Translations under genes and position numbers: made by a program
The notes under the pieces: generated by a model
What the model was told of the DNA's origin: nothing
The model's input: the letters and a program-made list of their open reading frames with translations, nothing else
Databases searched by the model: none
Shown: one piece after another, positions 4,157 to 57,461 of the stretch
Layout: each line of letters starts with the position of its first letter
How positions within the stretch are numbered: the first letter of the stretch is position 1
DNA from: Escherichia phage vB_EcoM_005
Length of the DNA stretch: 64,000 bases
Direction: 5' to 3' (one strand)
Sequence record: MK295203

Positions 4157-5131
4157 ATGCAAGATTTCGGACATTGGGCGGTATTTGAAGAAACCGATAT
4201 TAAAAACCATATTGGATTTGTATACGTAATCACTTTTGAAGATGGCAAAAAATATGTAGGTGCTAAAAAGATTTGGAAACGAATTAAAGCTGCACCTTGC
4301 ACATTTAAACGCGGCCCTAAAAAAGGATTTGAAGAATCTGATTGGAAAACCTATACCTCATCATCTAATGAACTAAACGCAATGATAGAAAAGGGTATAA
4401 GTCCTAAAGAGTACCTTATTGTAGGATGGTATCCTACTTGGGGTAAAACTCTTATGGCAGAAATGGAAATGCAATTAGCCAATGATGTTTTACGAGACCC
4501 TATGTGGCTTAACAAGCAAATTGGCGGACATTTCAACCCTAACTGCTTTGACGATTTAACCGCTGACGAAGTTGGCAAGTATATTAAATCTGGGTGGCAA
4601 TTTGGTCGTTCTAAAACAGAAAAACATTCTGTTACCTATAATTGCTCTAAATTTACTATATGGGACTATCAAGAAAATAAAGCAGTGGAAGTTCTAAATC
4701 AAAATGAGTTTGCTCGTAATAATGATTTAAGTAGCAACCATCTAACTAGACTACTTCAAGGAACTCTCGACCTTATTAAAGATCGCTGGGGACTTCCACC
4801 AGATATTGCTCGTCAGCGTTATAAATTTCAGGACGTTTCTTCAGGAACAAAATTTTTATCTAATTCTGAGTTAGAAGAATTTTACGGTATGACTCGCGGT
4901 CAGGCTAACAAAGCCGTTAAAGATGGAAGAGCCGTTAAATTGGTAGTCGAAAGCAAAGAAGACCACATTAAAAAACTTGGCTCTATCGAATTGGTAAAAA
5001 CCGAAAAGACAAAAGTTACGTCTCAAGTAATGCTTAACAGTTTTAAAGATATAGTTAATCCTATGACCACTGCCGAAAAATCAGAAATGATTGAATGGTT
5101 GGAAAGTTATATAACTTATTTGAAATCTTAA
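4157..5131 (+). CDS. GIY-YIG homing endonuclease (seg-like)
   Basis: N-terminal GFVYVITFEDGKKYVGAKK (GIY...YVG) motif; 324 aa typical of free-standing T-even seg genes. Confidence 0.6.
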   Translation: MQDFGHWAVFEETDIKNHIGFVYVITFEDGKKYVGAKKIWKRIKAAPCTFKRGPKKGFEESDWKTYTSSSNELNAMIEKGISPKEYLIVGWYPTWGKTLMAEMEMQLANDVLRDPMWLNKQIGGHFNPNCFDDLTADEVGKYIKSGWQFGRSKTEKHSVTYNCSKFTIWDYQENKAVEVLNQNEFARNNDLSSNHLTRLLQGTLDLIKDRWGLPPDIARQRYKFQDVSSGTKFLSNSELEEFYGMTRGQANKAVKDGRAVKLVVESKEDHIKKLGSIELVKTEKTKVTSQVMLNSFKDIVNPMTTAEKSEMIEWLESYITYLKS

Positions 5132-13832: not shown

Positions 13833-14531
13833 ATGAAATTCTCTAAAGAAACTCTGAACATTCTGAAAAACTTCTCCGGTATTAACCCAGGTATCATGCT
13901 TAAACCTGGTAACACTATTCTAACTCGTTCAGTAACGGGTGCAAGTTATGGTGAAGCTACTGTAAATGACACCTTTGATATCGAAGCCGCAATTTATGAT
14001 TTGAACGGCTTCTTAAGTATTCTGTCATTGGTATCTGATAGTGCTGAAGTTTCGGTAAGTGAAGACCAAACCACTTTAATTATTAAAGACCAACGTTCAA
14101 CTATTAAGTGGCCTATTGCCGACCCAAGCACAATTGCATTCCCAAGCAAAGCTATTCCGTTCCCAGTGGCTGAAGTTATTTTTGACCTTAAAGCTGAAGA
14201 TTATCAACAGTTGATGCGGGTGTCCTCTGGACTGAGTATTGATACATTTGCTATTACTGTAGACAATGGTAAAATTGTAATCAATGGTTACAAACAAGTT
14301 GATGATAAGGACCTGGCACGCCCATTGTATTCCTTAGTGGTTGCAGACCATGATGGCCCTGAATTCAAATTCATTATTAACAAAACTAATATGAAAATGA
14401 TGCCGGCCGATTACCATGTTCTGTTATGGGCACGCGGTGAAGGTCAGGACGCTCGTTTCGCTGCTAAGTTTGAAGGTTCACAAGCTTCTTACGTATTAGC
14501 TATGGAAGCAGGCTCAAGCCACTCGTTCTAA
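13833..14531 (+). CDS. 45: sliding clamp gp45
   Basis: 232 aa; near-colinear with my recollection of T4 gp45 (SGINPGIML, AAIYDLNGFL, NKTNMKMMPADY, LLWARGEG). Confidence 0.92.
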   Translation: MKFSKETLNILKNFSGINPGIMLKPGNTILTRSVTGASYGEATVNDTFDIEAAIYDLNGFLSILSLVSDSAEVSVSEDQTTLIIKDQRSTIKWPIADPSTIAFPSKAIPFPVAEVIFDLKAEDYQQLMRVSSGLSIDTFAITVDNGKIVINGYKQVDDKDLARPLYSLVVADHDGPEFKFIINKTNMKMMPADYHVLLWARGEGQDARFAAKFEGSQASYVLAMEAGSSHSF

Positions 14532-14995
14532 TGTATATATGTTATCATAATACGATAACCAACACTAAAACCAAGTGTGTCTATCATTATTTTGGTAGAC
14601 ACCGTGTTACTGCTGAAGAATACTACGGTACAGGTAAGTTTGTTAAGAAATGCAAACGAGAAAATGCTATTACTCCAGGTCTTTGGGAGTTTTGTGTTGA
14701 AGTTATCCATACAGTGGATACGTTTAAAGAAGCCAAGATTATTGAAGAAGAGCTTGTTAAAGAAGGCATATCAAAATATGGTATCCTTTGTGTTAATAAG
14801 AATCCTGGTGGTGATGGCGGTGTGGATTACCACACCGAAGAATCTAAACGTAAAATGTCAGAAACTAGAACAGGAAAATCAAGAATATTTTCCGAAAGTC
14901 ATAAAGAAAATTTAAGTAAACGAGCCAGAAAATACTCTGATGTTTGGTCCGAACCTGTATATTCAAATCTTAAAACCATTTGGCTGGAAACAGGT
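14531..14995 (+). CDS. degenerate GIY-YIG/NUMOD endonuclease-like module, in frame with gene 44
   Basis: 155 codons with no stop before the gp44 Met; VYHYFG...YYGTGK (GIY-YIG-like) and HTEESKRKMSE / SESHKENLSK (NUMOD3-like); start overlaps gene 45 stop (TAATG). Confidence 0.45.
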
Positions 14996-15967
14996 ATGTT
15001 ATTAAATGGTTTAACTATTAATGAAAACGACTTCATGTGGGAACAGAAATATCGTCCAGGTACTTTATCTGAGTGTATTCTGCCTGCGCATGATAAAGAA
15101 ACCCTCCAAGCCATTGTTAATAAGGGCCTAATCCCTAACATTATCCTAGTCTCTGCTTCACCAGGCACAGGTAAAACTACCGTAGCTAAAGCATTGTGTG
15201 CTGATACAAATTCAGATATGCTGTTTGTTAACGGTTCTGACTGCCGTATTGATTTCGTTCGTAACGAACTTACTCGTTTTGCATCTTCTAAATCTATCGA
15301 AGGTAAGCGTAAGGTAATTGTTATCGACGAATTCGACCGCGCTGGTGTTGCTGAAGCTCAACGTCACCTTCGTTCGTTCTTAGAAGCCTATTCCTCAAAC
15401 TGTTCTGTAATTATTACAGCAAACAATATTGATGGTATTATCGGTCCACTTCAATCCCGTTGTCGTGTTATTAAATTTGGTGAAGCCACTCCAGCCGACC
15501 AAACATCCATGATGAAAGAAATGATTCATCGTGCTGTAGCAATCTGTAAAAACGAAAATATCGAAGTCGAAGACCTTAAAGTTATTGCCGCTTTAGTTAA
15601 ACAAAACTTTCCTGACTTCCGTAAAACAGTTAACCAACTGGACCGTTACTCATCCAGTGGTAAAATCGATACAGGCATTTTGAGTATTGTAATGAATACC
15701 AATTCGCCTATCGATGAAGTAGTGGCTGCACTTAAAGATAAAAACTTTAAAGAACTCCGTGCATTAGCTCCACGCCATGTCAATGACTATTCCAACTTTA
15801 TTATGTCACTGGCTAACGAACTCTATGGTAAATTGCCTGGACCAAGCATTGTTAGAATGTATGAAATTGTCGGTGAAAATAACCAATACCACGGTATTGC
15901 GGCTAACCCAGAAATTCACATGACTTATCTGTTCATCCAACTTGCTCTGGAGCTCCAATGGCTATAA
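14996..15967 (+). CDS. 44: clamp-loader large subunit gp44
   Basis: AAA+ Walker A SPGTGKTT, Walker B VIVIDEFD, sensor IITANN; high identity to my recollection of T4 gp44 from MLLNG..EQKYRPG onward. Confidence 0.9.
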   Translation: MLLNGLTINENDFMWEQKYRPGTLSECILPAHDKETLQAIVNKGLIPNIILVSASPGTGKTTVAKALCADTNSDMLFVNGSDCRIDFVRNELTRFASSKSIEGKRKVIVIDEFDRAGVAEAQRHLRSFLEAYSSNCSVIITANNIDGIIGPLQSRCRVIKFGEATPADQTSMMKEMIHRAVAICKNENIEVEDLKVIAALVKQNFPDFRKTVNQLDRYSSSGKIDTGILSIVMNTNSPIDEVVAALKDKNFKELRALAPRHVNDYSNFIMSLANELYGKLPGPSIVRMYEIVGENNQYHGIAANPEIHMTYLFIQLALELQWL

Positions 15968-27780: not shown

Positions 27781-27800
27781 GGAGCTTCGGCTCCTTTTTT
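27781..27800 (+). terminator. rho-independent terminator
   Basis: GGAGC-TTCG-GCTCC hairpin followed by TTTTTT. Confidence 0.6.
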
Positions 27801-27809
27801 GTTTTAAGG

Positions 27810-27838
27810 GTTTACATCTCCTATAGGCATGATACTAT
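27810..27838 (+). promoter_or_regulatory. T4-type early promoter
   Basis: GTTTAC 27810-27815, 17-nt spacer, TACTAT 27833-27838, AGACCTATCAAC leader. Confidence 0.55.
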
Positions 27839-27862
27839 AGACCTATCAACTTGGAGAACAAA

Positions 27863-29947: not shown

Positions 29948-30109
29948 ATGAAATCTTTTAAAGAAGTTATGAACGAAGATATGGTCGCAGGCGATGCAGG
30001 TGGTAATCCTACTGCTATTGCCTCCGGAACTACCTCAGGCGCAGTCGTCAACAAAGGGCCTGAACAAATCCCATCTAAAAAGCGTAAAGAAAAATCCGAA
30101 AACGAATGA
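29948..30109 (+). CDS. hypothetical protein
   Basis: 53-aa ORF; same frame as the downstream endonuclease remnant, separated by a TGA. Confidence 0.3.
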   Translation: MKSFKEVMNEDMVAGDAGGNPTAIASGTTSGAVVNKGPEQIPSKKRKEKSENE

Positions 30110-30145
30110 TATAATGGCTCTATTAATTTAGAGTATGATAAGTAC

Positions 30146-30676
30146 ATGGGTTCAGGAGGGCCTTTAAGTAGGGCAAAGGAAAAATACGGGCTGGAAAATT
30201 TCGAAAGAGAAATTCTAGAGTTTTTCCCTAATGAAGACCTAATGAACGAAGCTGAGGCAGCTATAGTAACTAAAGAATTTATTAAAAGACCCGATGTTTA
30301 TAATGCTGTGCCGGGCGGCAGAAGTTTTAGAGTAGGCCCGACGGAAAATTATGATTCTAAACGGCATTCAGAAGTCCAGATAAAAAGCTGGGATAATCCT
30401 GAAAAAAGGGCCAAGCAAGCCAAAACTATAAAAGCTATCGCATGGAAAGAATGGGATAATTTAGAGGAAGTAAAAATCCGACATAAAGAATCCTGCAGTA
30501 AAGCACAAAGAAAACATAAAGCCTGGAAAGATTATAATGTATTAAAAGAGATTTGGGTTAAATTAGGAAAACCTGGATACGGTAGGTTTAATAATGAATT
30601 AATTAAGCTTGGTTACGAAAAAAGAAATTACCAAAGAATGGTAGATGCTTTTAATAAAGAGGAAGAACTAGTATGA
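30146..30676 (+). pseudogene. GIY-YIG homing endonuclease remnant (N-terminally truncated)
   Basis: begins inside the catalytic domain (KYMGSGG...KEKYGLENFEREILE); NUMOD-like linker; C-terminal module shared with the two HNH ORFs downstream. Confidence 0.5.
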
Positions 30677-30927
30677 GTTTTGTAGACAGAGAATTTGCTT
30701 TAAGAGCTTTTCAAACACTGCCAAAATTTAGACAAGTTACCGGAAGCGATTTTAAGCTTAACGCAAGGTGCCCTATTTGTGGTGACTCACAGAAAGACGA
30801 ACATAAAGCTCGTTTTTGGGCTTATCCTGTGAATGATGGTGGCATTATGTTGCACTGCTTCAATTGCGATGCTAGTTTAGGAATTAAGAAGTATCTATAC
30901 GAATACGAGCCTGATTTATATCGTTAA
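30673..30927 (+). CDS. 61: DNA primase gp61, N-terminal zinc-binding domain as a separate ORF
   Basis: FKLNARCPICGDSQKDEHKARFW...HCFNC matches my recollection of the T4 gp61 zinc ribbon; ORF stops after EPDLYR. Confidence 0.8.
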   Translation: MSFVDREFALRAFQTLPKFRQVTGSDFKLNARCPICGDSQKDEHKARFWAYPVNDGGIMLHCFNCDASLGIKKYLYEYEPDLYR

Positions 30928-30940
30928 GATGCCTGTCATC

Positions 30941-31144
30941 GAAAAGCTTAATTTCTGTGAACGATTAGATAGAATGCCAAACGACCATCCTATTATCAAA
31001 TATGTGACACTACGTTGCATTCCTGAAAACAAATGGAATCGTGAAAAGCTTAATTTCTGTGAACGATTAGATAGAATGCCAAAGGACCATCCTATTATCA
31101 AATATGTAACACTACGTTGCATTCCTGAAAACAAATGGAATCGC
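30941..31144. repeat. tandem duplication, 2 x 102 bp (in frame) within primase
   Basis: two copies differing at 3 positions. Confidence 0.8.
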
Positions 31145-31496
31145 TTATGGTTTACTAAAGAATGGCCGGCATTGGTGAACTCTGTCAATCCAGGGACCTA
31201 TTCTAAATTGAAATGCCTGAGCCTCGTTTGGTTATTCCAATTTTCAATAAGAATAAACAAATTGAAAGTTTTCAGGGTCGAGCCTTACGTAAAGATGCTC
31301 CACAAAAATATATTACAATACGTTGTGGTTTACTAAAGAATGGCCGGCATTAGTTAACTCTGTGAATCCAGGGACCTATTCTAAAGAAATGCCTGAACCT
31401 CGTTTGGTTATTCCAATTTTCAATAAGAATAAACAAATTGAAAGTTTTCAGGGTCGAGCCTTACGTAAAGATGCTCCACAAAAATATATTACAATA
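31145..31496. repeat. tandem duplication, 2 x about 178 bp within primase
   Basis: copies nearly identical; copy 1 carries a small indel and the period is not a multiple of 3. Confidence 0.8.
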
Positions 31497-31592
31497 AGTT
31501 GGTGTGGGTAATGGAAGGCCCTATTGACTCTTTGTTTGTTCCGAATGCAATAGCAATTACTGGCGGGTCGTTGGACTTGGCTATGGTTCCAT

Positions 31593-31690
31593 GTAAAGAA
31601 ACTCGTGCCTGGGTAATGGACAATGAACCCCGCCATCCGTTGTAAAGAAACACGTGCCTGGGTAATGGACAATGAACCCCGCCATCCTGA
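31593..31690. repeat. tandem duplication, 2 x 49 bp within primase
   Basis: GTAAAGAAAC(T/A)CGTGCCTGGGTAATGGACAATGAACCCCGCCATCC repeated. Confidence 0.8.
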
Positions 31691-31719
31691 CACAATTAAG
31701 CGTATGCAACGATTAGTTG

Positions 31720-32370
31720 ATGCTGGCGAAAGGGTTCTATTCTGGGACAAGAGGAAAATTAAGAGGTTCTAAGCGGTCTTTATCATATTATACGGAAGAA
31801 CACCATGTTATACCTAGATGTATGAATGGTTCTGATGATAAAAACAATTTAGTTGCTTTATTGCCAAGAGAACACTTTGTAGCTCATAGGCTTTTAACAA
31901 AAATATATCCCGAAGTAAAAGGTCTACATTATGCTGTTAATTTAATGAGATATAATAAAGGAGTTAAATTAACTAGTAGAACTATAGCCACGTTAAGAGA
32001 AAATAACGCTAAAGCATTTTCAGGAAAAAATAACCCGATGTTTGGTAAACCTTCCTGGATTAGAGGGATGAAAACTCCTGAAGAAACTAAAGCCAAAATG
32101 CGCCTGGCTCATAAAGATAAAATTATATCTGATGAAGCCAAGGCCAATATGAGTAAAGCTAGAAAAGGAAGATTTAGTGGTAAAGATTCCCCTAGATATG
32201 GTTTGCCAAATCCTAGGCGTGGAGAAATATGGAATAGTTACGATATGCTTTATGAATTATGGGTTTACAATAATAAACCTAAACGCACCAAATTTAATAA
32301 AATAGCTGTTGATAATGGATATCCTGATATTTGTTATCGACGAATGATAGAAAACTTTAATAGGAAATAA
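31720..32370 (+). CDS. HNH homing endonuclease
   Basis: EEHHVIPRCMNGSDDKNNLVALLPREHFVAH (HNH motif); NUMOD-like repeats; first ATG lies inside the last codons of the primase fragment in another frame. Confidence 0.65.
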   Translation: MLAKGFYSGTRGKLRGSKRSLSYYTEEHHVIPRCMNGSDDKNNLVALLPREHFVAHRLLTKIYPEVKGLHYAVNLMRYNKGVKLTSRTIATLRENNAKAFSGKNNPMFGKPSWIRGMKTPEETKAKMRLAHKDKIISDEAKANMSKARKGRFSGKDSPRYGLPNPRRGEIWNSYDMLYELWVYNNKPKRTKFNKIAVDNGYPDICYRRMIENFNRK

Positions 32371-32374
32371 TATA

Positions 32375-32512
32375 ATGGCATTTTTTAACGAATGTAGTGG
32401 TTTGATTTCTGGTGTTGATAAAGCTGAGGAAGCTTATTTTAATGCTCTGATTCACGAAGATAATTTATTTATTCGCTTTAATCTAACAGTTTATAATTAT
32501 CTAACTTATTAA
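32375..32512 (+). pseudogene. dCTPase gp56 N-terminal fragment (diverged partial duplicate)
   Basis: MAFFNECSGLISGVDKAEEAYFNALIHED then out-of-family tail; 52 bp identical to the start of the next copy. Confidence 0.5.
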
Positions 32513-32535
32513 TGAATTGAAAAAGGAAAAATATA

Positions 32536-32955
32536 ATGGCACACTTTAACGAATGCGCAAACCTGATTGCTGGTGTTGATAAAGCTGAGGAAGCTTATTT
32601 TAATGCTCTGATTCACGAAGATAAGGACCCTCTGCAGGTTATGTTGCGTGAACAGAAAGATTGTATTGACGATGAATTCCGTGAACTTCTGACTTCCCTC
32701 GGTGAAATGTCTAAAGGTGAGAAAGATGCATCTGCTGTATGGAAAAAATGGAAAGCCCGTTACCCGGAAGCACAAGCCAAACCTATTTCAGAAATGTCTC
32801 CTGAAGACCAGCTTGAAATTAAATTTGAACTCATTGATATTATGCACTTCGTATTCAATATGGCTATTGGCTTGAATATGTCGGCTGAAGAAATGTTTAA
32901 ACTTTATTACCTGAAAAATAAACACAACTTTGAACGCCAGGACAATGGATATTAA
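32536..32955 (+). CDS. 56: dCTP pyrophosphatase gp56 (MazG-like), copy 1
   Basis: 139 aa; MAHFNECA..., KDCIDDEFRELLTSLGEMS, EDQLEIKFELIDIMHF, KLYYLKNKHNF match my recollection of T4 gp56; lacks about 32 internal residues relative to T4. Confidence 0.8.
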   Translation: MAHFNECANLIAGVDKAEEAYFNALIHEDKDPLQVMLREQKDCIDDEFRELLTSLGEMSKGEKDASAVWKKWKARYPEAQAKPISEMSPEDQLEIKFELIDIMHFVFNMAIGLNMSAEEMFKLYYLKNKHNFERQDNGY

Positions 32956-33379
32956 TTTCAAATCCGTTCTTAAAGAAAAGTTCCCGCAATGGGAACTTTT
33001 AGAAGATAAACCTGAATATAACCGTCATCCTGATGACTTGGCTACTGCAGGTGAAGTTGTTGATTGGTTGCGCAATCAGAAAGATTATATTGATGATGAA
33101 TTCCGCGAACTTCTGACTTCTCTTGGTGGCATGAGCAATGGCGAAAAAGATGCGAGCGCTGTATGGAAGCCTTGGAAAGCTCAACATGCTGAACGTCGTG
33201 AAACCCTGATTAACGATTTGTCTCCTGAAGACCAGCTCGAAATTAAATTCGAAATGATTGATATTCTGCACTTTGTTCTGAATATGTTCCAAGGTCTTGG
33301 ACTGACTGCTGAAGAAATCTTTAAACTGTATTACCTGAAAAATAAACACAACTTTGAACGCCAGGACAATGGATATTAA
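32945..33379 (+). CDS. 56: dCTP pyrophosphatase gp56 (MazG-like), copy 2 with a different N-terminus
   Basis: 144 aa; carries the HPDDLATAGEVVDWLRNQKDYIDDEF segment missing from copy 1 but lacks the MAHFNEC N-terminus; last 90 nt identical to copy 1. Confidence 0.7.
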   Translation: MDINFKSVLKEKFPQWELLEDKPEYNRHPDDLATAGEVVDWLRNQKDYIDDEFRELLTSLGGMSNGEKDASAVWKPWKAQHAERRETLINDLSPEDQLEIKFEMIDILHFVLNMFQGLGLTAEEIFKLYYLKNKHNFERQDNGY

Positions 33380-33412
33380 TTTCAAATCCGTTCTTAAAGA
33401 AAAGTTCCCGCA

Positions 33413-34210
33413 ATGGGAACTTTTAGAGGTCATGATTACTTAAAAATTATAGATAAGTATAAACTAAACGTCCATACCAAATCTAAAACTGAAGCTCATC
33501 ATATACTTCCGAAGTGTGCATTTCCAGAATACAGCGATTTTAAAATCTCTCCTTGGAATAGGGTGTATCTTCCTATATACCAACACATATATGTTCATTA
33601 TCTTTTGTGCTCAACTAAGGTGTCGGGTTTGCTTAATGCATTCCAGAGAATGACACTAACAAATAGTGCCCAGTTTAAGAAGCTTTCTGATTTAGAGAAA
33701 GACCTTACTATTAAGTTATGGGCCGATAAACGTGGGGAGTGGATAGAGCAAGACATTCTCCGTAAAAGAAAATCCTTTATGTATTCTAATTTTGATTTCT
33801 GGTATAATGACTGGATTTCGCGGGATATGCCTCGCTATCGAAGATATTGGGGAGTTTTGGTTGAAGAAAATAATCCGGAAGTTTTAGGTACCCACAAAAA
33901 TAGTTTATTGACAGTGGTAAAAGATTTTTGTTTGAGATACGCAGAAGAACATAATTTATCTGAAGAAGAAGTTTTGAGTCTTCAAAAATTAAAACAGTCT
34001 TCAGAAAAAGCTTTAAAAGATAAAGGAAAAACTTTAAGTAAAACTGCTAGAGGCAATCAACTCAAATGGAATTATGAAACTGAGCTTAGGAATTTATGGA
34101 TTGCTAATAACAAACCAAAATATGTGAATTTCAGAAAGCTAGTGGTTAGCTTAGGCTACCCGGATGAAAATTATATAAACATGATAAAGAGGTTTGAAAA
34201 TGGGTTCTGA
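33413..34210 (+). CDS. HNH homing endonuclease
   Basis: TEAHHILPKCAFPEYSD...NRVYLP...HIYVH (HNH motif); start codon lies within a 92-bp repeat derived from gene 56. Confidence 0.65.
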   Translation: MGTFRGHDYLKIIDKYKLNVHTKSKTEAHHILPKCAFPEYSDFKISPWNRVYLPIYQHIYVHYLLCSTKVSGLLNAFQRMTLTNSAQFKKLSDLEKDLTIKLWADKRGEWIEQDILRKRKSFMYSNFDFWYNDWISRDMPRYRRYWGVLVEENNPEVLGTHKNSLLTVVKDFCLRYAEEHNLSEEEVLSLQKLKQSSEKALKDKGKTLSKTARGNQLKWNYETELRNLWIANNKPKYVNFRKLVVSLGYPDENYINMIKRFENGF

Positions 34211-34316
34211 GATGTTGCTTTGGGCCATAGTCTTCCTTTTATTCTTAATTGGGTTGGGGATTTATAGAATTACTGGCCTATTAGAACGACAGTTTAAAGA
34301 TGGCCAGTAATTAAGT

Positions 34317-34324
34317 TATAAATA
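34317..34324 (+). promoter_or_regulatory. T4 late promoter (TATAAATA)
   Basis: exact TATAAATA 32 nt upstream of the soc start. Confidence 0.55.
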
Positions 34325-34355
34325 CACCTGTAATTAAACAACAAAGGAGTTAATT

Positions 34356-34589
34356 ATGGGTGGTTTCGTTAATATCAAAACCTTTACGCATCCGGCCGGT
34401 GAAGGTAAAGAAGTTAAAGGTACCGAGGTTTCTGTCCCGTTTGAGATTTATTCAAACGAGCACCGTATTGCAGACTCTCATTATCAGACTTTCCCTTCAG
34501 CCGTTGCAGCCTACTCAACCGTAGTGACTGATGCTGCTGACTGGAAGACCAAAAACGCGGCGATGTTTACGCCAACTGATATTGTTTAA
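34356..34589 (+). CDS. soc: small outer capsid protein Soc
   Basis: 77 aa; GFVNIKTF, HYQTFPSAVAAYSTV match my recollection of T4 Soc. Confidence 0.8.
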   Translation: MGGFVNIKTFTHPAGEGKEVKGTEVSVPFEIYSNEHRIADSHYQTFPSAVAAYSTVVTDAADWKTKNAAMFTPTDIV

Positions 34590-37445: not shown

Positions 37446-37514
37446 ACCACCCGGTTTAATTGAAAGGCAAAGTCCTTGATTCATTATACCGTCGAAAATT
37501 TAAAGCAAAAAAGT

Positions 37515-37543
37515 GTTTACTTTATCAAGCAACGTGATACTAT
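37515..37543 (+). promoter_or_regulatory. T4-type early promoter
   Basis: GTTTAC 37515-37520, TACTAT 37538-37543, AGACCTATCAAC leader. Confidence 0.55.
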
Positions 37544-37582
37544 AGACCTATCAACTAATCGTCCGTAAGATGAGAAAAAATT

Positions 37583-50024: not shown

Positions 50025-50114
50025 GTAGCAAAACGTGGTGCCTTATTTGGATGGCCTGTATCCCAGTGATCTGTGTATGTTTTAGTTTATTGTTGTGGAA
50101 ATTGGCATAAATCA

Positions 50115-50143
50115 GTGTACATCTCCATTAATCATGATACTAT
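50115..50143 (+). promoter_or_regulatory. early promoter (GTGTAC -35 variant)
   Basis: GTGTAC 50115-50120, 17-nt spacer, TACTAT 50138-50143, AGACCTATCAAC leader. Confidence 0.45.
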
Positions 50144-50169
50144 AGACCTATCAACTAATGGAGATGATT

Positions 50170-53024: not shown

Positions 53025-53043
53025 GGGTTTAGTGCAAAAAAGT

Positions 53044-53072
53044 GTTTACATCTGCTTTAAACATGATACTAT
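53044..53072 (+). promoter_or_regulatory. T4-type early promoter
   Basis: GTTTAC 53044-53049, 17-nt spacer, TACTAT 53067-53072, AGACCTATCAA leader. Confidence 0.55.
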
Positions 53073-53110
53073 AGACCTATCAAATAAATGAACTGAAACG
53101 GAGATACAAA

Positions 53111-53989: not shown

Positions 53990-54328
53990 ATGATTCCGAT
54001 GGAACTTAACTGGGACGGTGAAGGTCATTCCCTTAAATTGATTGAAGAACAACGTAATGATTGGGACGAGCGTGTAGCTTTGGTAAGCGGTATTAAGAAA
54101 ATTTACCAACTCGATCTCCAGATTGATAACGTTTATCTTGAATTTGGTATGCAGTTATTACGATTTCTTGAGATTATTTTTATTGAAAAGGTAAATATAA
54201 CTTCGTATGGCGAGGGCCAAACAGTTAATATTAAATTATCATCCTATTATAAAGGCGAGTTAATTGAAACTGCCACCAAAATTCAAGAATTTGCTAAAGA
54301 TAACGGCCATAAGGTGATTTTCAAATGA
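53990..54328 (+). CDS. hypothetical protein
   Basis: 112-aa ORF with AAGGA RBS. Confidence 0.4.
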
Positions 54329-54813
54329 ATCCATTAAAAGGTAAAGCATTATCCTTTAAAGACCGTATGGCTTTATTAGATAAAGCTCTTTCTCGTGAGA
54401 CGCCTGAAAGTCTAGCAGCTAAATTACGGGCATATGGTGATTACACCGAATATACAGAAGAGGATGTTTTAGAAGAGGTTCCTGAAATCTGTTGGCAAAT
54501 CGCTCATTGGAACAATAATGAAAAATATCAGCGCAGGATTGTGTGCGCAGCCAACCGCTTTAAGTTAAAAGACGGTGGGACTCTGGTTATTCCTGGCGCT
54601 CGTCATTATTCTAAAGATATGGCTGAAGTTCTCGACCAGGTAAGTGATAAACTTGTATCAGACCATGTTTGTGGTGATGACCAAGGATTTATTGACCAAT
54701 ATTCAAACTATTGGACTCGCGAAGAAGCAATGATTATTGCGACTTATGCTAATCAAGTTCGTATTGAACGTGGTGGCAGTGAAAAAGAACTTTACTCTGA
54801 GGACCTTTACTAA
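54325..54813 (+). CDS. hypothetical protein, tandem paralogue A
   Basis: 162 aa; [31 protein letters not shown]...[20 protein letters not shown]. Confidence 0.5.
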
Positions 54814-54907
54814 TGAATCTTAAACAACTCCAGATTGATGCAATCGAAGCCCATATTAATCATGTTAAACGTCTTACCCTCTGGCAACGTGTTAAAGGAT
54901 GGTTCAA

Positions 54908-55396
54908 ATGAATCCATTAAAAGGTAAAGAATTATCCTTTAAACACCGTTTGGCTTTATTAGATAAAGCTCTTTCTCGTGAGACGCCTGAAAGTCTAGCA
55001 GCTAAATTACAGGCCTATGGTGATTACACCGAATATACGGAAGAGGATGTTCTAAAAGAAGTCCCTGAAATCTGTTGGCAAGTGGCCCATTGGTGTGAAG
55101 ACCAAAAATTCCAGCGTCGAATTGTATGTGCTGCAAACCGTTTTAAGTTAAAAGATGGTGGAACTCTGGTTATTCCTGCGACACGTCATTACTCTAAAGA
55201 TATGGGTGCGGTTATCAAGGCAGTTGAAGATAAATTGGTAACACGATTTGTCTGTGATGATGACCAAGGCTTTGTCGACCAATATGGTAATTATTGGACT
55301 CGTGAAGAAGCAATGATAATTGCAACATATGCTAATCAGGTTCGTATTGAACGTGGTGGTAGTGAAAAAGAACTTTACTCTGAGGACCTTTACTAA
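54908..55396 (+). CDS. hypothetical protein, tandem paralogue B
   Basis: 163 aa; same domain as 54325-54813, mosaic of identical and diverged blocks. Confidence 0.5.
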
Positions 55397-55417
55397 TGAA
55401 TCTTAAACAACTCCAGA

Positions 55418-55678
55418 TTGATGCAATCGAAGCCCATATTAATCATGTTAAACGCACTGAATGCCACGGTGGAAGATAATTGGGGAACTTATGTAAACCA
55501 ACCGGCTTGGGATGCTTTAGACCACGAATATATAAAGAATATTAGTTCTAAGACAATCCACGGGAATATGGAAGGGTTGAAGCCATTCCTACGTGATATG
55601 TATATTGCAACTAATAAAGAAATTATCAGCTCTCTTGAATATCAATTAAGGAAATTACGTGAACAATCTGGTAGCTAA
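55418..55678 (+). CDS. hypothetical protein (second copy at 56899-57111)
   Basis: 86-aa ORF; C-terminal 70 residues repeated nearly identically 1.4 kb downstream. Confidence 0.4.
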   Translation: MMQSKPILIMLNALNATVEDNWGTYVNQPAWDALDHEYIKNISSKTIHGNMEGLKPFLRDMYIATNKEIISSLEYQLRKLREQSGS

Positions 55679-55800
55679 GCACGACTCATAAGGACAAGAA
55701 GAAAAACTTTAAAGAGTCTAAACGTAAACAGAAACATAAGGGTAAAGGCTATGAGTCATAACTTAGAGAATACCGTAACAGGCATGCGTACACGGGACAT

Positions 55801-55829
55801 GTTTACAATCCCTAAGGATATGTTAGTAT
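55801..55829 (+). promoter_or_regulatory. T4-type early promoter (copy 1)
   Basis: GTTTAC 55801-55806, 17-nt spacer, TAGTAT 55824-55829. Confidence 0.5.
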
Positions 55830-55870
55830 AGCCCTATCAGATAATGACGTACTGAATTGAAGAGAATATT

Positions 55871-56005
55871 ATGACTAAAATTGAAATCGTTTCCGAAATT
55901 GCCACTATTGTTTCCATTTTGATTAAAACGGATTGTGAAGACATCATGCAACGTCGTGATGAGTTTATGAACATGTTTACAATCCCTAAGGATATGTTAG
56001 TATAG
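55871..56005 (+). pseudogene. asiA 5' duplicate, truncated at the repeat junction
   Basis: MTKIEIVSEIATIVSILIKTDCEDIMQRRDEF then reads into the repeated promoter sequence and stops. Confidence 0.5.
55975..56003 (+). promoter_or_regulatory. T4-type early promoter (copy 2)
   Basis: identical to the 55801-55829 promoter. Confidence 0.5.
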
Positions 56006-56044
56006 CCCTATCAGATAATGACGTACTGAATTGAAGAGAATATT

Positions 56045-56320
56045 ATGACTAAAATTGAAATTGTTTCCGAAATTGCTACTATTGTTTCCATTTTGATTAA
56101 AACGGATTGTGAAGACATCATGCAACGTCGTGATGAGTTTATTGCCTTTTTGAATGAGTTGGGTATTCGTAATGAACATGGAAAGGAACTTAATGGTTTG
56201 TCTTATAACAAATTATTTAAGTCTTTAACTGAAGATGAACGTGACACTCTTATTGAGCAATTTAATGAAGGATATGAAGATATACACCGTTATTTAATGA
56301 TGTATACCTCCAATTTCTAA
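56045..56320 (+). CDS. asiA: anti-sigma-70 factor AsiA
   Basis: 91 aa; TIVSILIK...FIAFLNE.G..HEG..LN..S..K....LTE...TLIEQFNEGYE..HRYL.MYT matches my recollection of T4 AsiA. Confidence 0.85.
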   Translation: MTKIEIVSEIATIVSILIKTDCEDIMQRRDEFIAFLNELGIRNEHGKELNGLSYNKLFKSLTEDERDTLIEQFNEGYEDIHRYLMMYTSNF

Positions 56321-56643
56321 CGTGTTCGACCTAATGTCCTTCCGGCTTGACCGCACATAGACGAAAGTCTAGGAAATCCTAAATCCGGTTTGGCGCCTTT
56401 TTGAATGAGTTAGGTATTCGTAATGAACATGGAAAGGAACTTAATGGTTTGTCTTATAACAAATTATTTAAGTCTTTATCTGAAGATGAGCGTGAAACTC
56501 TTATTGAGCAATTTAATGAAGGATATGAAGATATACACCGTTACTTAATGATGTATACCTCCAATTTCTAACGTGTTCGACCTAATGTCCTGCCCGGCTT
56601 GACCACACATAGACGAAAGTCTAGGAAATCCTAAATCCGGTTT
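56144..56643. repeat. tandem duplication, 2 x about 250 bp (asiA 3' half plus the convergent holin 3' end)
   Basis: copy 1 56144-56392, copy 2 56395-56643, about 97% identical. Confidence 0.8.
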
Positions 56644-56907
56644 GATATCATACCAGTACAACGATATCGAGCCGGCGTAGACGTTATCCAAATTAAAAAA
56701 CGGGCATGAAAACATATACGTGAATTGTGTTTTCTTCTTTGTAGGAAGGAATACAGTTTCAGTACTTGATTCAAAGATATCATACCAGTACAACGATATC
56801 GAGCCGGAGTAGACGTTATCCAAATTAAAAAACGGGCATGAAAACATATACGTGAATTGTGTTTTCTTCTTTGTAGGAAGGAATACAGTTTCGATGTCAT
56901 GGTGGAA
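56644..56907. repeat. tandem duplication, 2 x 132 bp (in frame, 44 codons of holin)
   Basis: copies differ at one position. Confidence 0.8.
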
Positions 56908-57111
56908 GACAACTGGGGAACTTATGTCAACCAACCGGCTTGGGATGCCTTAGACCACGAATATATAAAGAATATTAGTTCTAAGACAATCCATGGTAAT
57001 ATGGAAGGGTTGAAGCCGTTCCTACGTGATATGTATATTGCAACTAATAAAGAAATTATCAGCTCTCTTGAATATCAATTAAGGAAATTACGTGAACAAT
57101 CTGGTAGCTAA
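56899..57111 (+). CDS. duplicate copy of the 55418-55678 ORF, embedded within the holin region
   Basis: 70-aa ORF about 93% identical at DNA level to 55469-55678. Confidence 0.35.
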   Translation: MVEDNWGTYVNQPAWDALDHEYIKNISSKTIHGNMEGLKPFLRDMYIATNKEIISSLEYQLRKLREQSGS

Positions 57112-57133
57112 GCACGAGGGTACTTGATTCAAA

Positions 57134-57339
57134 ATAGTTCCCGTTAACTCCCGCCATATATTCTACTGACGTTTTGTCAATTGGAAACCCTCCCGTATTT
57201 TTTGCGTCTACCGTTTCCGGTAATTTACCCTCGTAGATAGTTCCCGTTAACTCCCGCCATATATTCTATTGACGTTTTGTCAATTGGAAACCCTCCCGTG
57301 TTTTTTGCGTCTACCGTTTCCGGTAATTTACCCTCGTAG
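57134..57339. repeat. tandem duplication, 2 x 103 bp within holin
   Basis: copies differ at 2-3 positions; period not a multiple of 3. Confidence 0.8.
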
Positions 57340-57343
57340 GCCA

Positions 57344-57461
57344 CCATATCCACAAAATAATTCATGTTGGTTGGTCTAAAAGAATATATTGCTGTGAAGG
57401 AGCAACCATATCCACAAAATAATTCATGTTGGTTGGTCTAAAAGAATATATTGCTGTGAAG
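57344..57461. repeat. tandem duplication, 2 x about 62 bp within holin
   Basis: 56 bp identical in both copies; creates the stop ending the N-terminal holin ORF. Confidence 0.8.

What the first reader, a model, noticed from the sequence alone, without database searches (positions are those of the whole stretch)
30146..34210. Three endonuclease ORFs of two catalytic families share one C-terminal module
The GIY-YIG remnant (30146-30676) and the two HNH genes (31720-32370, 33413-34210) end with clearly related sequences: ...KEIWVKLGKPGYGRFNNELIKLGYEKRNYQRMVDAFNKEE, ...YELWVYNNKPKRTKFNKIAVDNGYPDICYRRMIENFNRK and ...RNLWIANNKPKYVNFRKLVVSLGYPDENYINMIKRFENGF. Each is preceded by NUMOD-like basic repeats. 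A shared tail on different nuclease domains suggests domain shuffling among the homing endonucleases of this phage. All three sit within 4 kb around genes 61 and 56, the most rearranged early region in the window.
Basis: seen in the sequence. Interest (0 to 1): 0.55.

Follow-up and report, generated by a model that had tools for sequence, protein, structure and literature searches.

The report
Shared DNA-binding tail on phage homing endonucleases
Three selfish nuclease genes of a T4-like phage, built on two unrelated cutting domains, end in the same ~50-residue three-helix tail. That tail belongs to a widespread, uncatalogued probable DNA-binding module that T4's own MobD, SegA and SegF also carry, so this is a real but largely expected case of the known mix-and-match design of these enzymes.

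Summary
The C-terminal ~50 residues of the three ORFs are significantly similar: BLASTP E = 5e-9, 3e-6 and 8e-10, and shuffle z = 10-16.

A profile built from these tails finds the same module at the C-termini of T4 MobD (HNH), SegA and SegF (GIY-YIG). It also finds 122 protein clusters in 1.84 billion representatives. At least 47 of those carry GIY-YIG and at least 38 carry HNH, with one to three tandem copies each.

No Pfam or NCBIfam model and no solved structure matches the module. It is not NUMOD1, 3 or 4, and it does not match the NUMOD2-like repeats of I-Bth0305I.

AlphaFold gives a confident helical bundle (pLDDT 86). The module is basic (mean net charge +3.6) and sits where I-TevI and I-HmuI carry their helix-turn-helix, so it is most likely a DNA-anchoring module.

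The shuffling is ancient and family-wide, not local to this phage. The tails share 33-49% identity over their aligned residues, synonymous sites are close to saturated, and each gene has orthologues elsewhere with the same tail.

Only the first HNH gene has a detectable NUMOD3 repeat.

As read, all three genes have damaged 5' ends. Genes 61 and 56 carry tandem duplications whose copies differ by 1-21%, which most likely reflects a chimeric assembly.

Modular tails shared between these nuclease families are established knowledge. Only this particular module appears uncatalogued.

The parts
30134..30676 (+). 5'-truncated seg-like GIY-YIG homing endonuclease gene between 61.1 and gene 61. The ORF is readable from the internal ATG at 30146 (176 aa).
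   Evidence: PHROG 314 at 1.6e-19. Local GIY-YIG HMM at 7.7e-28. Full-length homologues P0002 (212 aa, 98% identical, PF01541), P0003 and P0004. P0004 lies directly upstream of the 341-aa gene in the gene-61 position on a 170.8-kb contig. Relative to the intact allele (L010, L011), 100 nt are replaced by a T at 30134.
30509..30673 (+). C-terminal module, copy on the GIY-YIG remnant (RKHKAWKDYNVLKEIWVKLGKPGYGRFNNELIKLGYEKRNYQRMVDAFNKEEELV).
   Evidence: BLASTP. Family HMM built from 133 module instances: E = 2.7e-21. The PHROG 314 match ends at residue 149 of 176, so the last 27 residues lie outside it.
31717..32370 (+). HNH1: MobE-annotated HNH homing endonuclease gene between genes 61 and 56. 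Its native first ~12 codons are replaced by internal gene-61 sequence.
   Evidence: PHROG 655 at 3.8e-48. Pfam HNH at 0.0026 and NUMOD3 at 1.4e-6. 96% identical to IME08 MobE from codon ~13 on. Junction at 31751/31752.
32212..32367 (+). C-terminal module, copy on HNH1 (PRRGEIWNSYDMLYELWVYNNKPKRTKFNKIAVDNGYPDICYRRMIENFNRK).
   Evidence: Family HMM E = 1.8e-25. AlphaFold2 model of this segment: pLDDT 85.9, helices at 7-12, 14-23, 29-38 and 47-55.
33369..34210 (+). HNH2: HNH homing endonuclease gene between gene 56 and soc, the site occupied by segF in T4. The native start is at 33369. A 5-nt insertion (AGGTC) shifts the frame near codon 20, so the longest ORF starts at 33413.
   Evidence: PHROG 655 at 7.9e-28 and PHROG 12434 at 3.1e-9. 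Local HNH HMM at 3.3e-25. Full-length homologues P0007 and P0008 (277-278 aa). Alignment with DK-13 and fPS-2 shows the insertion. Same gene at the same site in DK-13 and fPS-2. T4 segF lies between 56 and soc.
34049..34207 (+). C-terminal module, copy on HNH2 (RGNQLKWNYETELRNLWIANNKPKYVNFRKLVVSLGYPDENYINMIKRFENGF).
   Evidence: Family HMM E = 1.4e-22. BLASTP.
33764..33865 (+). Possible degenerate second, upstream copy of the module inside HNH2 (KRKSFMYSNFDFWYNDWISRDMPRYRRYWGVLVE). The evidence is weak.
   Evidence: Family HMM domain i-E = 0.077, conditional E = 3.7e-4. BLASTP secondary alignment E = 0.41. The profile search reports two stretches in homologue P0007.
32945..33003 (+). Orphan duplicate of the first 19 codons of HNH2 (MDINFKSVLKEKFPQWELL), joined to a second, diverged copy of the gene-56 body.
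   Evidence: ORF 32930-33379. Alignment of the two copies with DK-13 and fPS-2. 424-nt-period repeat with blocks at 79-97% identity.
30673..31751 (+). Gene 61 (primase). The reading frame is broken by tandem duplications of period 102, 176-178 and 49 nt (copies 94-98% identical). The 3' ~140 nt are missing.
32375..33379 (+). Gene 56 (dCTPase) region. The 5' end is present twice (period 161 nt) and the body twice (period 424 nt; repeat blocks 79-97% identical).
   Evidence: (PF08761 on both bodies).
14927..15001 (+). Fourth, truncated copy of the module. This is the first ~25 residues of the tail of a seg-like GIY-YIG gene inserted between genes 45 and 44, here fused in frame to gp44 (ORF 14531-15967).
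   Evidence: The intact Bp7 orthologue (192 aa, 98.8% identical) ends in a full module (E = 1.8e-10). The window has 113 nt replaced by one T. Pfam Gp44 domains lie on the rest of the ORF.

Best explanation
The three tails are copies of one autonomous ~50-residue protein module. Its consensus is R-K-x3-W-x5-L-x2-LW-x5-P-x4-F-[RK]-K-[IL]-A-V-x2-G-Y-P-D-x2-Y-x2-M-[VI]-x2-F.

The module belongs to the 'beads-on-a-string' DNA-recognition region of phage free-standing homing endonucleases. It folds as a small helical bundle with a helix-turn-helix-like helix 2 / G-Y-P turn / helix 3.

Inferred mechanism: the module anchors the enzyme on its target DNA at a distance from the cut, as the C-terminal helix-turn-helix does in I-TevI and I-HmuI. 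The N-terminal GIY-YIG or HNH domain, tethered by a basic (in HNH1, NUMOD3-containing) linker, then nicks or cleaves the endonuclease-free allele of the neighbouring gene (61 or 56) and drives homing with co-conversion.

The module has been exchanged many times between GIY-YIG and HNH scaffolds across phages. The three genes in this window each inherited their tail with the whole gene; they did not swap tails with each other here.

Shown: homology of the tails, the module's distribution on both nuclease classes, tandem copies, the predicted fold, the basic charge, and conservation of the insertion sites.
Inferred: DNA binding, the anchoring role, and the target genes.
For: Homology: BLASTP E = 5e-9, 3e-6 and 8e-10; shuffle z = 10-16.

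Same module in T4: an HMM built only from the three window tails, searched against all 2051 six-frame ORFs of T4 plus the window, hits the C-termini of MobD (2.5e-18), SegA (6.7e-9) and SegF (0.005). Nothing else scores below E = 0.1.

Distribution: 122 clusters at E <= 1e-3 in 1.84e9 representatives. Pfam on these gives NUMOD3 in 36, HNH in 13, SegE_GIY-YIG in 11 and GIY-YIG in 9. T4-seeded HMMs classify 47 as GIY-YIG and 38 as HNH. The module is almost always C-terminal and occurs in 1-3 tandem copies. Seven of the ten long unclassified proteins are also homing endonucleases (SegG-like, LEM-3-like GIY-YIG or HNH_3).

Shuffling: 38 of 105 modules have their nearest neighbour on the other nuclease class, with reciprocal cross-class pairs at 53-62% identity.

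Chemistry: the conserved positions are core aromatic or aliphatic residues plus the G-Y-P turn. Basic residues concentrate in the N-terminal arm, before helix 2 and at the start of helix 2. Mean net charge is +3.6, and 93% of modules are positive.

Architecture precedent: reviews describe both phage endonuclease families as sharing small DNA-binding modules in varying combinations (PMC2988022, PMC2677866, PMC3664794).

Ancient origin: third-position identity 0.37-0.49. Orthologues with the same tails exist in IME08, DK-13, fPS-2 and metagenomic contigs.
Confidence: 0.7

Rival explanations
1. Recent, local domain shuffling: the three endonuclease genes of this phage exchanged their 3' ends with one another by recombination in the rearranged 61-56 region.
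For: The genes lie within 4 kb, in a region that shows many junctions and duplications.
Against: The tails share 33-49% amino-acid identity over their aligned residues, 50-57% nucleotide identity and 37-49% third-position identity. No DNA repeat links them. Each full gene, tail included, has orthologues in other phages at the same site. The local duplications involve genes 61 and 56, not the tails.
Confidence: 0.04
2. The module is not a DNA-binding domain. Instead it is a protein-interaction or regulatory domain common to free-standing endonucleases, for example for dimerisation to make double-strand breaks or for docking on replication or recombination proteins.
For: There is no significant structural or sequence link to any DNA-binding family with a solved structure. 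Small helical bundles are generic. HNH enzymes of this type nick one strand (PMC2988022), so a partner-recruiting domain is conceivable.
Against: The module is strongly basic, with conserved Arg/Lys at the arm and at the start of helix 2. It occurs in variable tandem arrays of 1-3 copies, like DNA-reading repeats. It occupies the position of the helix-turn-helix in I-TevI and I-HmuI and follows NUMOD3 linkers in 36 of 122 clusters. Surface positions on helix 3 are the most variable, as expected if different copies read different sequences.
Confidence: 0.15
3. The module is the already-named 'NUMOD2' of Sitbon and Pietrokovski (2003), so nothing here is new.
For: That study surveyed the T4 Seg and Mob proteins for conserved non-catalytic motifs. 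NUMOD2 is described as helix-turn-helix-like and as typically appearing twice per protein (PMC3239194). It has no Pfam entry, which would explain the empty Pfam result.
Against: The I-Bth0305I repeats, reported as significantly similar to NUMOD2, are not recognised by the module profile (E = 0.69). hhalign gives 0.6% probability. The original paper could not be read.
Confidence: 0.3
4. The similarity is a compositional artefact of basic, helical, AT-rich-encoded C-termini.
For: The regions are Lys/Asn-rich and the genome is AT-rich.
Against: Composition-adjusted BLASTP E-values are 1e-6 to 1e-10. Shuffles that preserve composition never reach the observed scores. Ten invariant columns in the 7-sequence alignment (R6, W11, L17, W21, P27, F32, G40, Y41, Y46, F53) are mostly aromatic or structural residues. 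The profile picks out only homing endonucleases from whole genomes.
Confidence: 0.01

Closest known systems
[quoted passage not shown]
   Same: An N-terminal nuclease domain, a basic linker (NUMOD3 in HNH1) and a small C-terminal helical module. The same module type is found on both nuclease families in varying numbers and combinations.
   Different: The terminal module is not NUMOD1, 3 or 4: Pfam gives no hit at E <= 10. It does not match the T4 NUMOD1-type helix-turn-helix segments (hhalign 0.2%) or the I-Bth0305I NUMOD2-like repeats (0.6%). It has its own W/LW/KP/F/GYP/Y/M/F signature.
T4 MobD (HNH), SegA and SegF (GIY-YIG)
   Same: They carry the same module at their C-termini (2.5e-18, 6.7e-9 and 0.005 with the window-only profile; 2.4e-22, 1.5e-16 and 1.6e-7 with the family profile). 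They are free-standing genes inserted between conserved genes.
   Different: They sit at different insertion sites, except that the segF site (56|soc) is occupied here by an HNH gene. SegF keeps only the first half of the module recognisably.
SegF-mediated 'intronless homing' at gene 56 (Belle, Landthaler and Shub 2002, as cited in PMC2330249)
   Same: A free-standing endonuclease gene lies immediately downstream of gene 56, overlapping its 3' end. Gene 56 is polymorphic around it.
   Different: The enzyme here is an HNH protein rather than the GIY-YIG SegF. Cleavage of gene 56 by it is an inference and has not been tested.
Homeodomain / Myb-like three-helix DNA-binding domains

Membership tests
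Modular (NUMOD-type) phage homing endonuclease architecture | N-terminal GIY-YIG or HNH (His-Me finger) catalytic domain | tested here: met
   HNH1 and HNH2: PHROG 655 and 12434, local HNH HMM at 1.3e-34 and 3.3e-25, and HH...N...H motifs visible in the sequence. GIY ORF: PHROG 314 at 1.6e-19. The window copy lacks the first ~36 residues, but the intact homologue P0002 has PF01541.
Modular (NUMOD-type) phage homing endonuclease architecture | C-terminal region built from small modules, including NUMOD3 minor-groove helices | tested here: inconclusive
   NUMOD3 is found in HNH1 only (1.4e-6). It is not detected in the GIY remnant or HNH2 at E <= 10. Across the family it is present in 36 of 122 clusters.
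Modular (NUMOD-type) phage homing endonuclease architecture | The same non-catalytic module occurs on different nuclease families | tested here: met
   47 GIY-YIG and 38 HNH clusters carry it. One member is HNH_3-type (P0090). T4 MobD versus SegA and SegF.
Modular (NUMOD-type) phage homing endonuclease architecture | The module binds DNA and confers target-site recognition | not testable with these tools
   Indirect evidence only: positive charge, fold resemblance and position in the protein.
NUMOD1 / IENR1 helix-turn-helix (PF07453) | Match to the family profile | tested here: not met
   No Pfam hit for any tail at E <= 10. hhalign against T4 NUMOD1-type segments (I-TevI, MobB, I-TevII, SegD) gives 0.2% probability.
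NUMOD3 (PF07460) and NUMOD4 (PF07463) | Match of the tail itself to the family profile | tested here: not met
   The NUMOD3 hit in HNH1 lies at residues 99-111, upstream of the tail.
NUMOD2 (Sitbon and Pietrokovski 2003) | Similarity to the NUMOD2 block, represented here by the I-Bth0305I N-terminal repeats said to resemble it | tested here: inconclusive
   The family HMM does not detect I-Bth0305I (E = 0.69). hhalign gives 0.6% probability. The original block and its member list could not be read, so identity with NUMOD2 is not excluded.
Free-standing homing endonuclease gene (intronless homing) | Optional gene inserted between conserved genes, present in some relatives and absent in others | tested here: met
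   The GIY gene is absent in IME08 and E33, where the flanks are otherwise identical, and present in L003, L010-L012. HNH2 is absent in IME08 and E33 and present in DK-13 and fPS-2. HNH1 is absent in JS98, QL01 and WG01 and present in IME08.
Free-standing homing endonuclease gene (intronless homing) | Site-specific cleavage of the endonuclease-less allele and biased inheritance | not testable with these tools
   Requires cleavage assays and mixed infections.

The most novel reading that the evidence does not exclude
The tail is a previously uncatalogued DNA-binding module family (in effect a 'NUMOD5') with these properties:
- It is absent from Pfam, NCBIfam and the PDB.
- It is present in at least 122 protein clusters at 50% identity.
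- It is used singly or in tandem arrays of up to three.
- It has been swapped so often between GIY-YIG and HNH scaffolds that more than a third of copies have their closest relative on the other nuclease type, with up to 62% identity.

If different copies read different sequences, the family would be a natural library of small, portable DNA-recognition units, usable for engineered monomeric nucleases in the way the I-TevI domains have been used.
Probability: 0.4. Interest if true: 0.45.

Novelty: new member of a known kind. Interest (0 to 1): 0.3.

Why it matters
[quoted passage not shown] The finding therefore does not change understanding.

What it adds is a specific, well-delimited module that the curated domain libraries miss. 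This leaves the recognition regions of T4 MobD, SegA and SegF, and of hundreds of relatives, unannotated.

Defining the module would:
- improve annotation of 'hypothetical' phage genes;
- give a handle for predicting endonuclease targets;
- offer small DNA-binding units for engineering.

The window also illustrates how clusters of homing endonuclease genes coincide with stretches that assemble badly.

Tried and rejected
1. The word-indexed homologue search with the 3-tail alignment returned one protein. The search with HNH2 returned two. Both were too shallow to build deep alignments.
2. The full-length AlphaFold2 model of HNH2 from a 3-sequence alignment failed (pLDDT 38.6). It could not be used to test the putative second module copy or the HNH fold.
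3. Foldseek against the PDB gave nothing significant. The sequence profile against the PDB gave nothing below E = 0.28. The afdb50 library was unavailable.
4. Identity with NUMOD2 could not be settled. I located I-Bth0305I via Vsr and 3R3P and compared profiles with a negative result. The 2003 NUMOD paper and the 2002 SegF paper are not held.
5. I asked whether endonucleases of different class at the same site share closer tails. The T4 SegF and HNH2 tails at 56|soc are not especially similar by eye. The cross-class pair P0015/P0033 (62% identical modules) both sit next to terminase genes, but of different terminase families. I drew no conclusion.
6. I considered that the 61/56 duplications are biological segmental amplification. 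I judged this unlikely because the copies differ by 1-21%, break essential reading frames, and recur in a second zone at 54.3-57.5 kb.

Full report
**Where the window comes from.** The window is the early-gene region of a T4-type phage of the Dhakavirus group (JS98, IME08, E33). A megablast of 30000-34400 finds these phages at 93-97% identity. No record covers more than 57% of the stretch. In IME08 and E33 the gene order is 61.1, 61 (primase), a gene annotated mobE, 56 (dCTPase), then soc.

**The three ORFs.** All three exist as described.
- 30146-30676 (176 aa) matches the GIY-YIG homing endonuclease family PHROG 314 at 1.6e-19.
- 31717-32370 (217 aa) matches the HNH homing endonuclease family PHROG 655 at 3.8e-48.
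- 33413-34210 (265 aa) matches PHROG 655 at 7.9e-28.
- Pfam sees HNH (weakly) and NUMOD3 (1.4e-6) only in the 217-aa protein.

- BLASTP on the full proteins aligns the tails. The GIY protein matches HNH1 at E = 5e-9 and HNH2 at E = 3e-6 through the C-terminal ~50 residues; the HNH1-HNH2 alignment (E = 8e-10) also spans the shared HNH region.
- Smith-Waterman scores of the tails alone exceed all 2000 composition-preserving shuffles, with z = 10-16.
- In an alignment of the tails and their close homologues, ten columns are invariant: R, W, L, W, P, F, G, Y, Y, F.

**The module is not peculiar to this phage.**
- An HMM built only from the three window tails was run against every six-frame ORF of at least 40 aa in T4 plus the window (2051 sequences). 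Beyond the three window tails it hits the C-termini of T4 MobD (2.5e-18), SegA (6.7e-9) and SegF (0.005). Nothing else scores below E = 0.1. T4 itself therefore carries the module on one HNH and two GIY-YIG enzymes.
- A full HMMER search of 1.84 billion cluster representatives, using a 7-sequence tail profile, gives 122 clusters at E <= 1e-3 and 45 at E <= 1e-10.
- Pfam on those 122 gives NUMOD3 in 36, HNH in 13 (plus 7 matches to other HNH families), SegE_GIY-YIG in 11 and GIY-YIG in 9.
- HMMs seeded with T4 Seg and Mob N-termini classify 47 clusters as GIY-YIG and 38 as HNH. Most of the 37 unclassified clusters are short fragments.
- Of the ten long unclassified proteins, seven are SegG-like or LEM-3-like GIY-YIG or HNH_3 enzymes.
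- The module is nearly always C-terminal. In many proteins it occurs two or three times in tandem, for example in P0009 and P0012.

**How much shuffling, and when.**
- Among 105 modules on classified proteins, 38 have their nearest relative on the other nuclease class. Reciprocal cross-class pairs reach 53-62% identity. The same-class fraction is 0.64, against 0.50 +/- 0.06 for shuffled labels. Exchange between scaffolds has therefore been frequent.
- Within this window, the tails share only 33-49% amino-acid identity over their aligned residues. Third-codon-position identity is 0.37-0.49.
- No DNA repeat links the tail-coding segments.
- Each gene has orthologues elsewhere that already carry the same tail, at the same site. 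IME08 MobE is 96% identical over the whole protein and identical in the tail. The HNH gene of DK-13 and fPS-2 lies between 56 and soc. P0002, P0003 and P0004 are full-length seg homologues, and P0004 sits immediately upstream of the 341-aa gene in the gene-61 position on a 170.8-kb contig.

**What the module is.**
- No Pfam family matches any tail even at E <= 10. NCBIfam has nothing relevant. No PDB sequence scores better than E = 0.28.
- AlphaFold2 on the HNH1 tail with the 7-sequence alignment gives a confident model: pLDDT 85.9, with helices at 7-12, 14-23, 29-38 and 47-55.
- Independent BFVD models of T4-like homing endonucleases superpose on it at TM 0.75-0.86.
- Over 133 aligned module instances, the conserved positions are core residues (W8, L14, W18, F29, Y43, M46, F50), P24 and the G37-Y38-P39 turn.
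- Basic residues concentrate at positions 3-4, at 23 and 28, and at 30-31 (the start of helix 2). The least conserved positions lie on helix 3.
- Mean net charge is +3.6, and 93% of instances are positive.
- Taken with its position after basic or NUMOD3 linkers, this is the profile of a helix-turn-helix-like DNA anchor. It would be analogous to the C-terminal helix-turn-helix of I-TevI and I-HmuI (described in PMC2988022 and PMC3664794). DNA binding itself is inferred, not shown.

**Relation to named modules.**
- Reviews state that the DNA-binding regions of both phage endonuclease families are 'beads on a string' of small modules (PMC2988022). [quoted passage not shown] The concept is therefore known.
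- The module is not NUMOD1, 3 or 4.
- NUMOD2 has no Pfam model. The only accessible description says the I-Bth0305I N-terminal repeats resemble it and resemble helix-turn-helix motifs (PMC3239194).
- I recovered I-Bth0305I from phage 0305phi8-36. The module profile does not detect it (E = 0.69), and hhalign gives 0.6% probability.
- The 2003 NUMOD paper is not held. Identity with the original NUMOD2 therefore cannot be excluded; I put it at about 0.3.

**State of the genes in this window.** All three genes are damaged at their 5' ends as read.
- The seg gene has 100 nt replaced by a single T at 30134. This removes its start codon and the GIY...YIG hairpin.
- HNH1 has its first ~12 codons replaced by internal gene-61 sequence, at a junction that also removes the last ~140 nt of gene 61.
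- HNH2 starts at 33369 and carries a 5-nt insertion near codon 20. A duplicate of its first 19 codons sits at 32945-33003, joined to a second copy of gene 56.
- Genes 61 and 56 contain tandem duplications with periods of 102, 176-178, 49, 161 and 424 nt. Copies are 79-98% identical and break both reading frames. A second zone of the same kind lies at 54.3-57.5 kb.
- Diverged tandem copies inside essential genes are not what a viable phage or a fresh duplication would show. A chimeric assembly of co-occurring strains is the most economical explanation, with breakpoints where endonuclease-containing and endonuclease-free haplotypes diverge. This remains unproven.
- The module finding does not depend on the assembly, because intact orthologues carry the same tails.

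**Verdict.** The phenomenon is a well-known design principle. The specific module appears to be missing from curated libraries, so I rate it a new member of a known kind, of modest interest.

Noticed in passing
window 14531-15967 (module fragment at 14927-15001): A seg-like GIY-YIG gene inserted between genes 45 and 44 is fused in frame to the gp44 clamp-loader subunit, giving a 478-aa ORF. The intact Bp7 orthologue (192 aa) ends in a full copy of the same tail module. The window has 113 nt replaced by one T, which removes two-thirds of the module, the stop codon and the first four codons of gene 44.
   Followed up: yes
window 30941-31687 and 32356-33427: Genes 61 and 56 carry tandem duplications (periods 102, 176-178, 49, 161 and 424 nt) whose copies differ by 1-21% and break the reading frames. 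This is probably a chimeric assembly of co-occurring strains rather than biology.
   Followed up: partly
window 54320-57461: A second zone of near-tandem duplications (periods 583, 1433, 251, 174, 132, 103 and 62 nt; copies 87-99% identical) lies downstream of motA. It includes two 162-165-aa ORFs and two 84-86-aa ORFs that are allelic-looking copies of each other.
   Followed up: no
window 4157-5131: An intact 324-aa SegE-type GIY-YIG endonuclease (PF19835, 7.8e-34). Neither module profile matched it in the six-frame ORF searches, and by eye its C-terminal region looks NUMOD1/helix-turn-helix-like. The phage therefore uses more than one kind of recognition tail.
   Followed up: partly
P0005 (131 aa, on a 30-kb metagenomic contig): A natural internal-deletion derivative of the seg gene found upstream of gene 61. 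It keeps the first ~43 residues and the tail module but lacks the middle, which suggests these genes decay repeatedly in nature.
   Followed up: no
L014 (P0015) and L015/L016 (P0033): A GIY-YIG enzyme and an HNH enzyme whose modules are 62% identical both lie next to large-terminase genes, though of different terminase families. The contigs lack T4-type neighbouring genes, and one is a contig of an NCBI genome assembly (GCA_033021395.1). The module family therefore extends beyond T4-type phages.
   Followed up: partly
window 27800-27862, 37505-37567, 50105-50167, 53034-53096: A 63-nt direct-repeat family shares the core GTTTACA-N15-TGATACTATAGACCTATCAAC. It looks like a family of T4-type early promoters with a conserved transcript start region.
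   Followed up: no
L001 4545-5093 (phage E33): The gene annotated mobE in E33 is called from an internal Met (MNGSDDK...). It lacks the first ~36 residues, including the HH of the HNH motif. The gene's 5' end may be damaged or mis-called in that published genome too.
   Followed up: no
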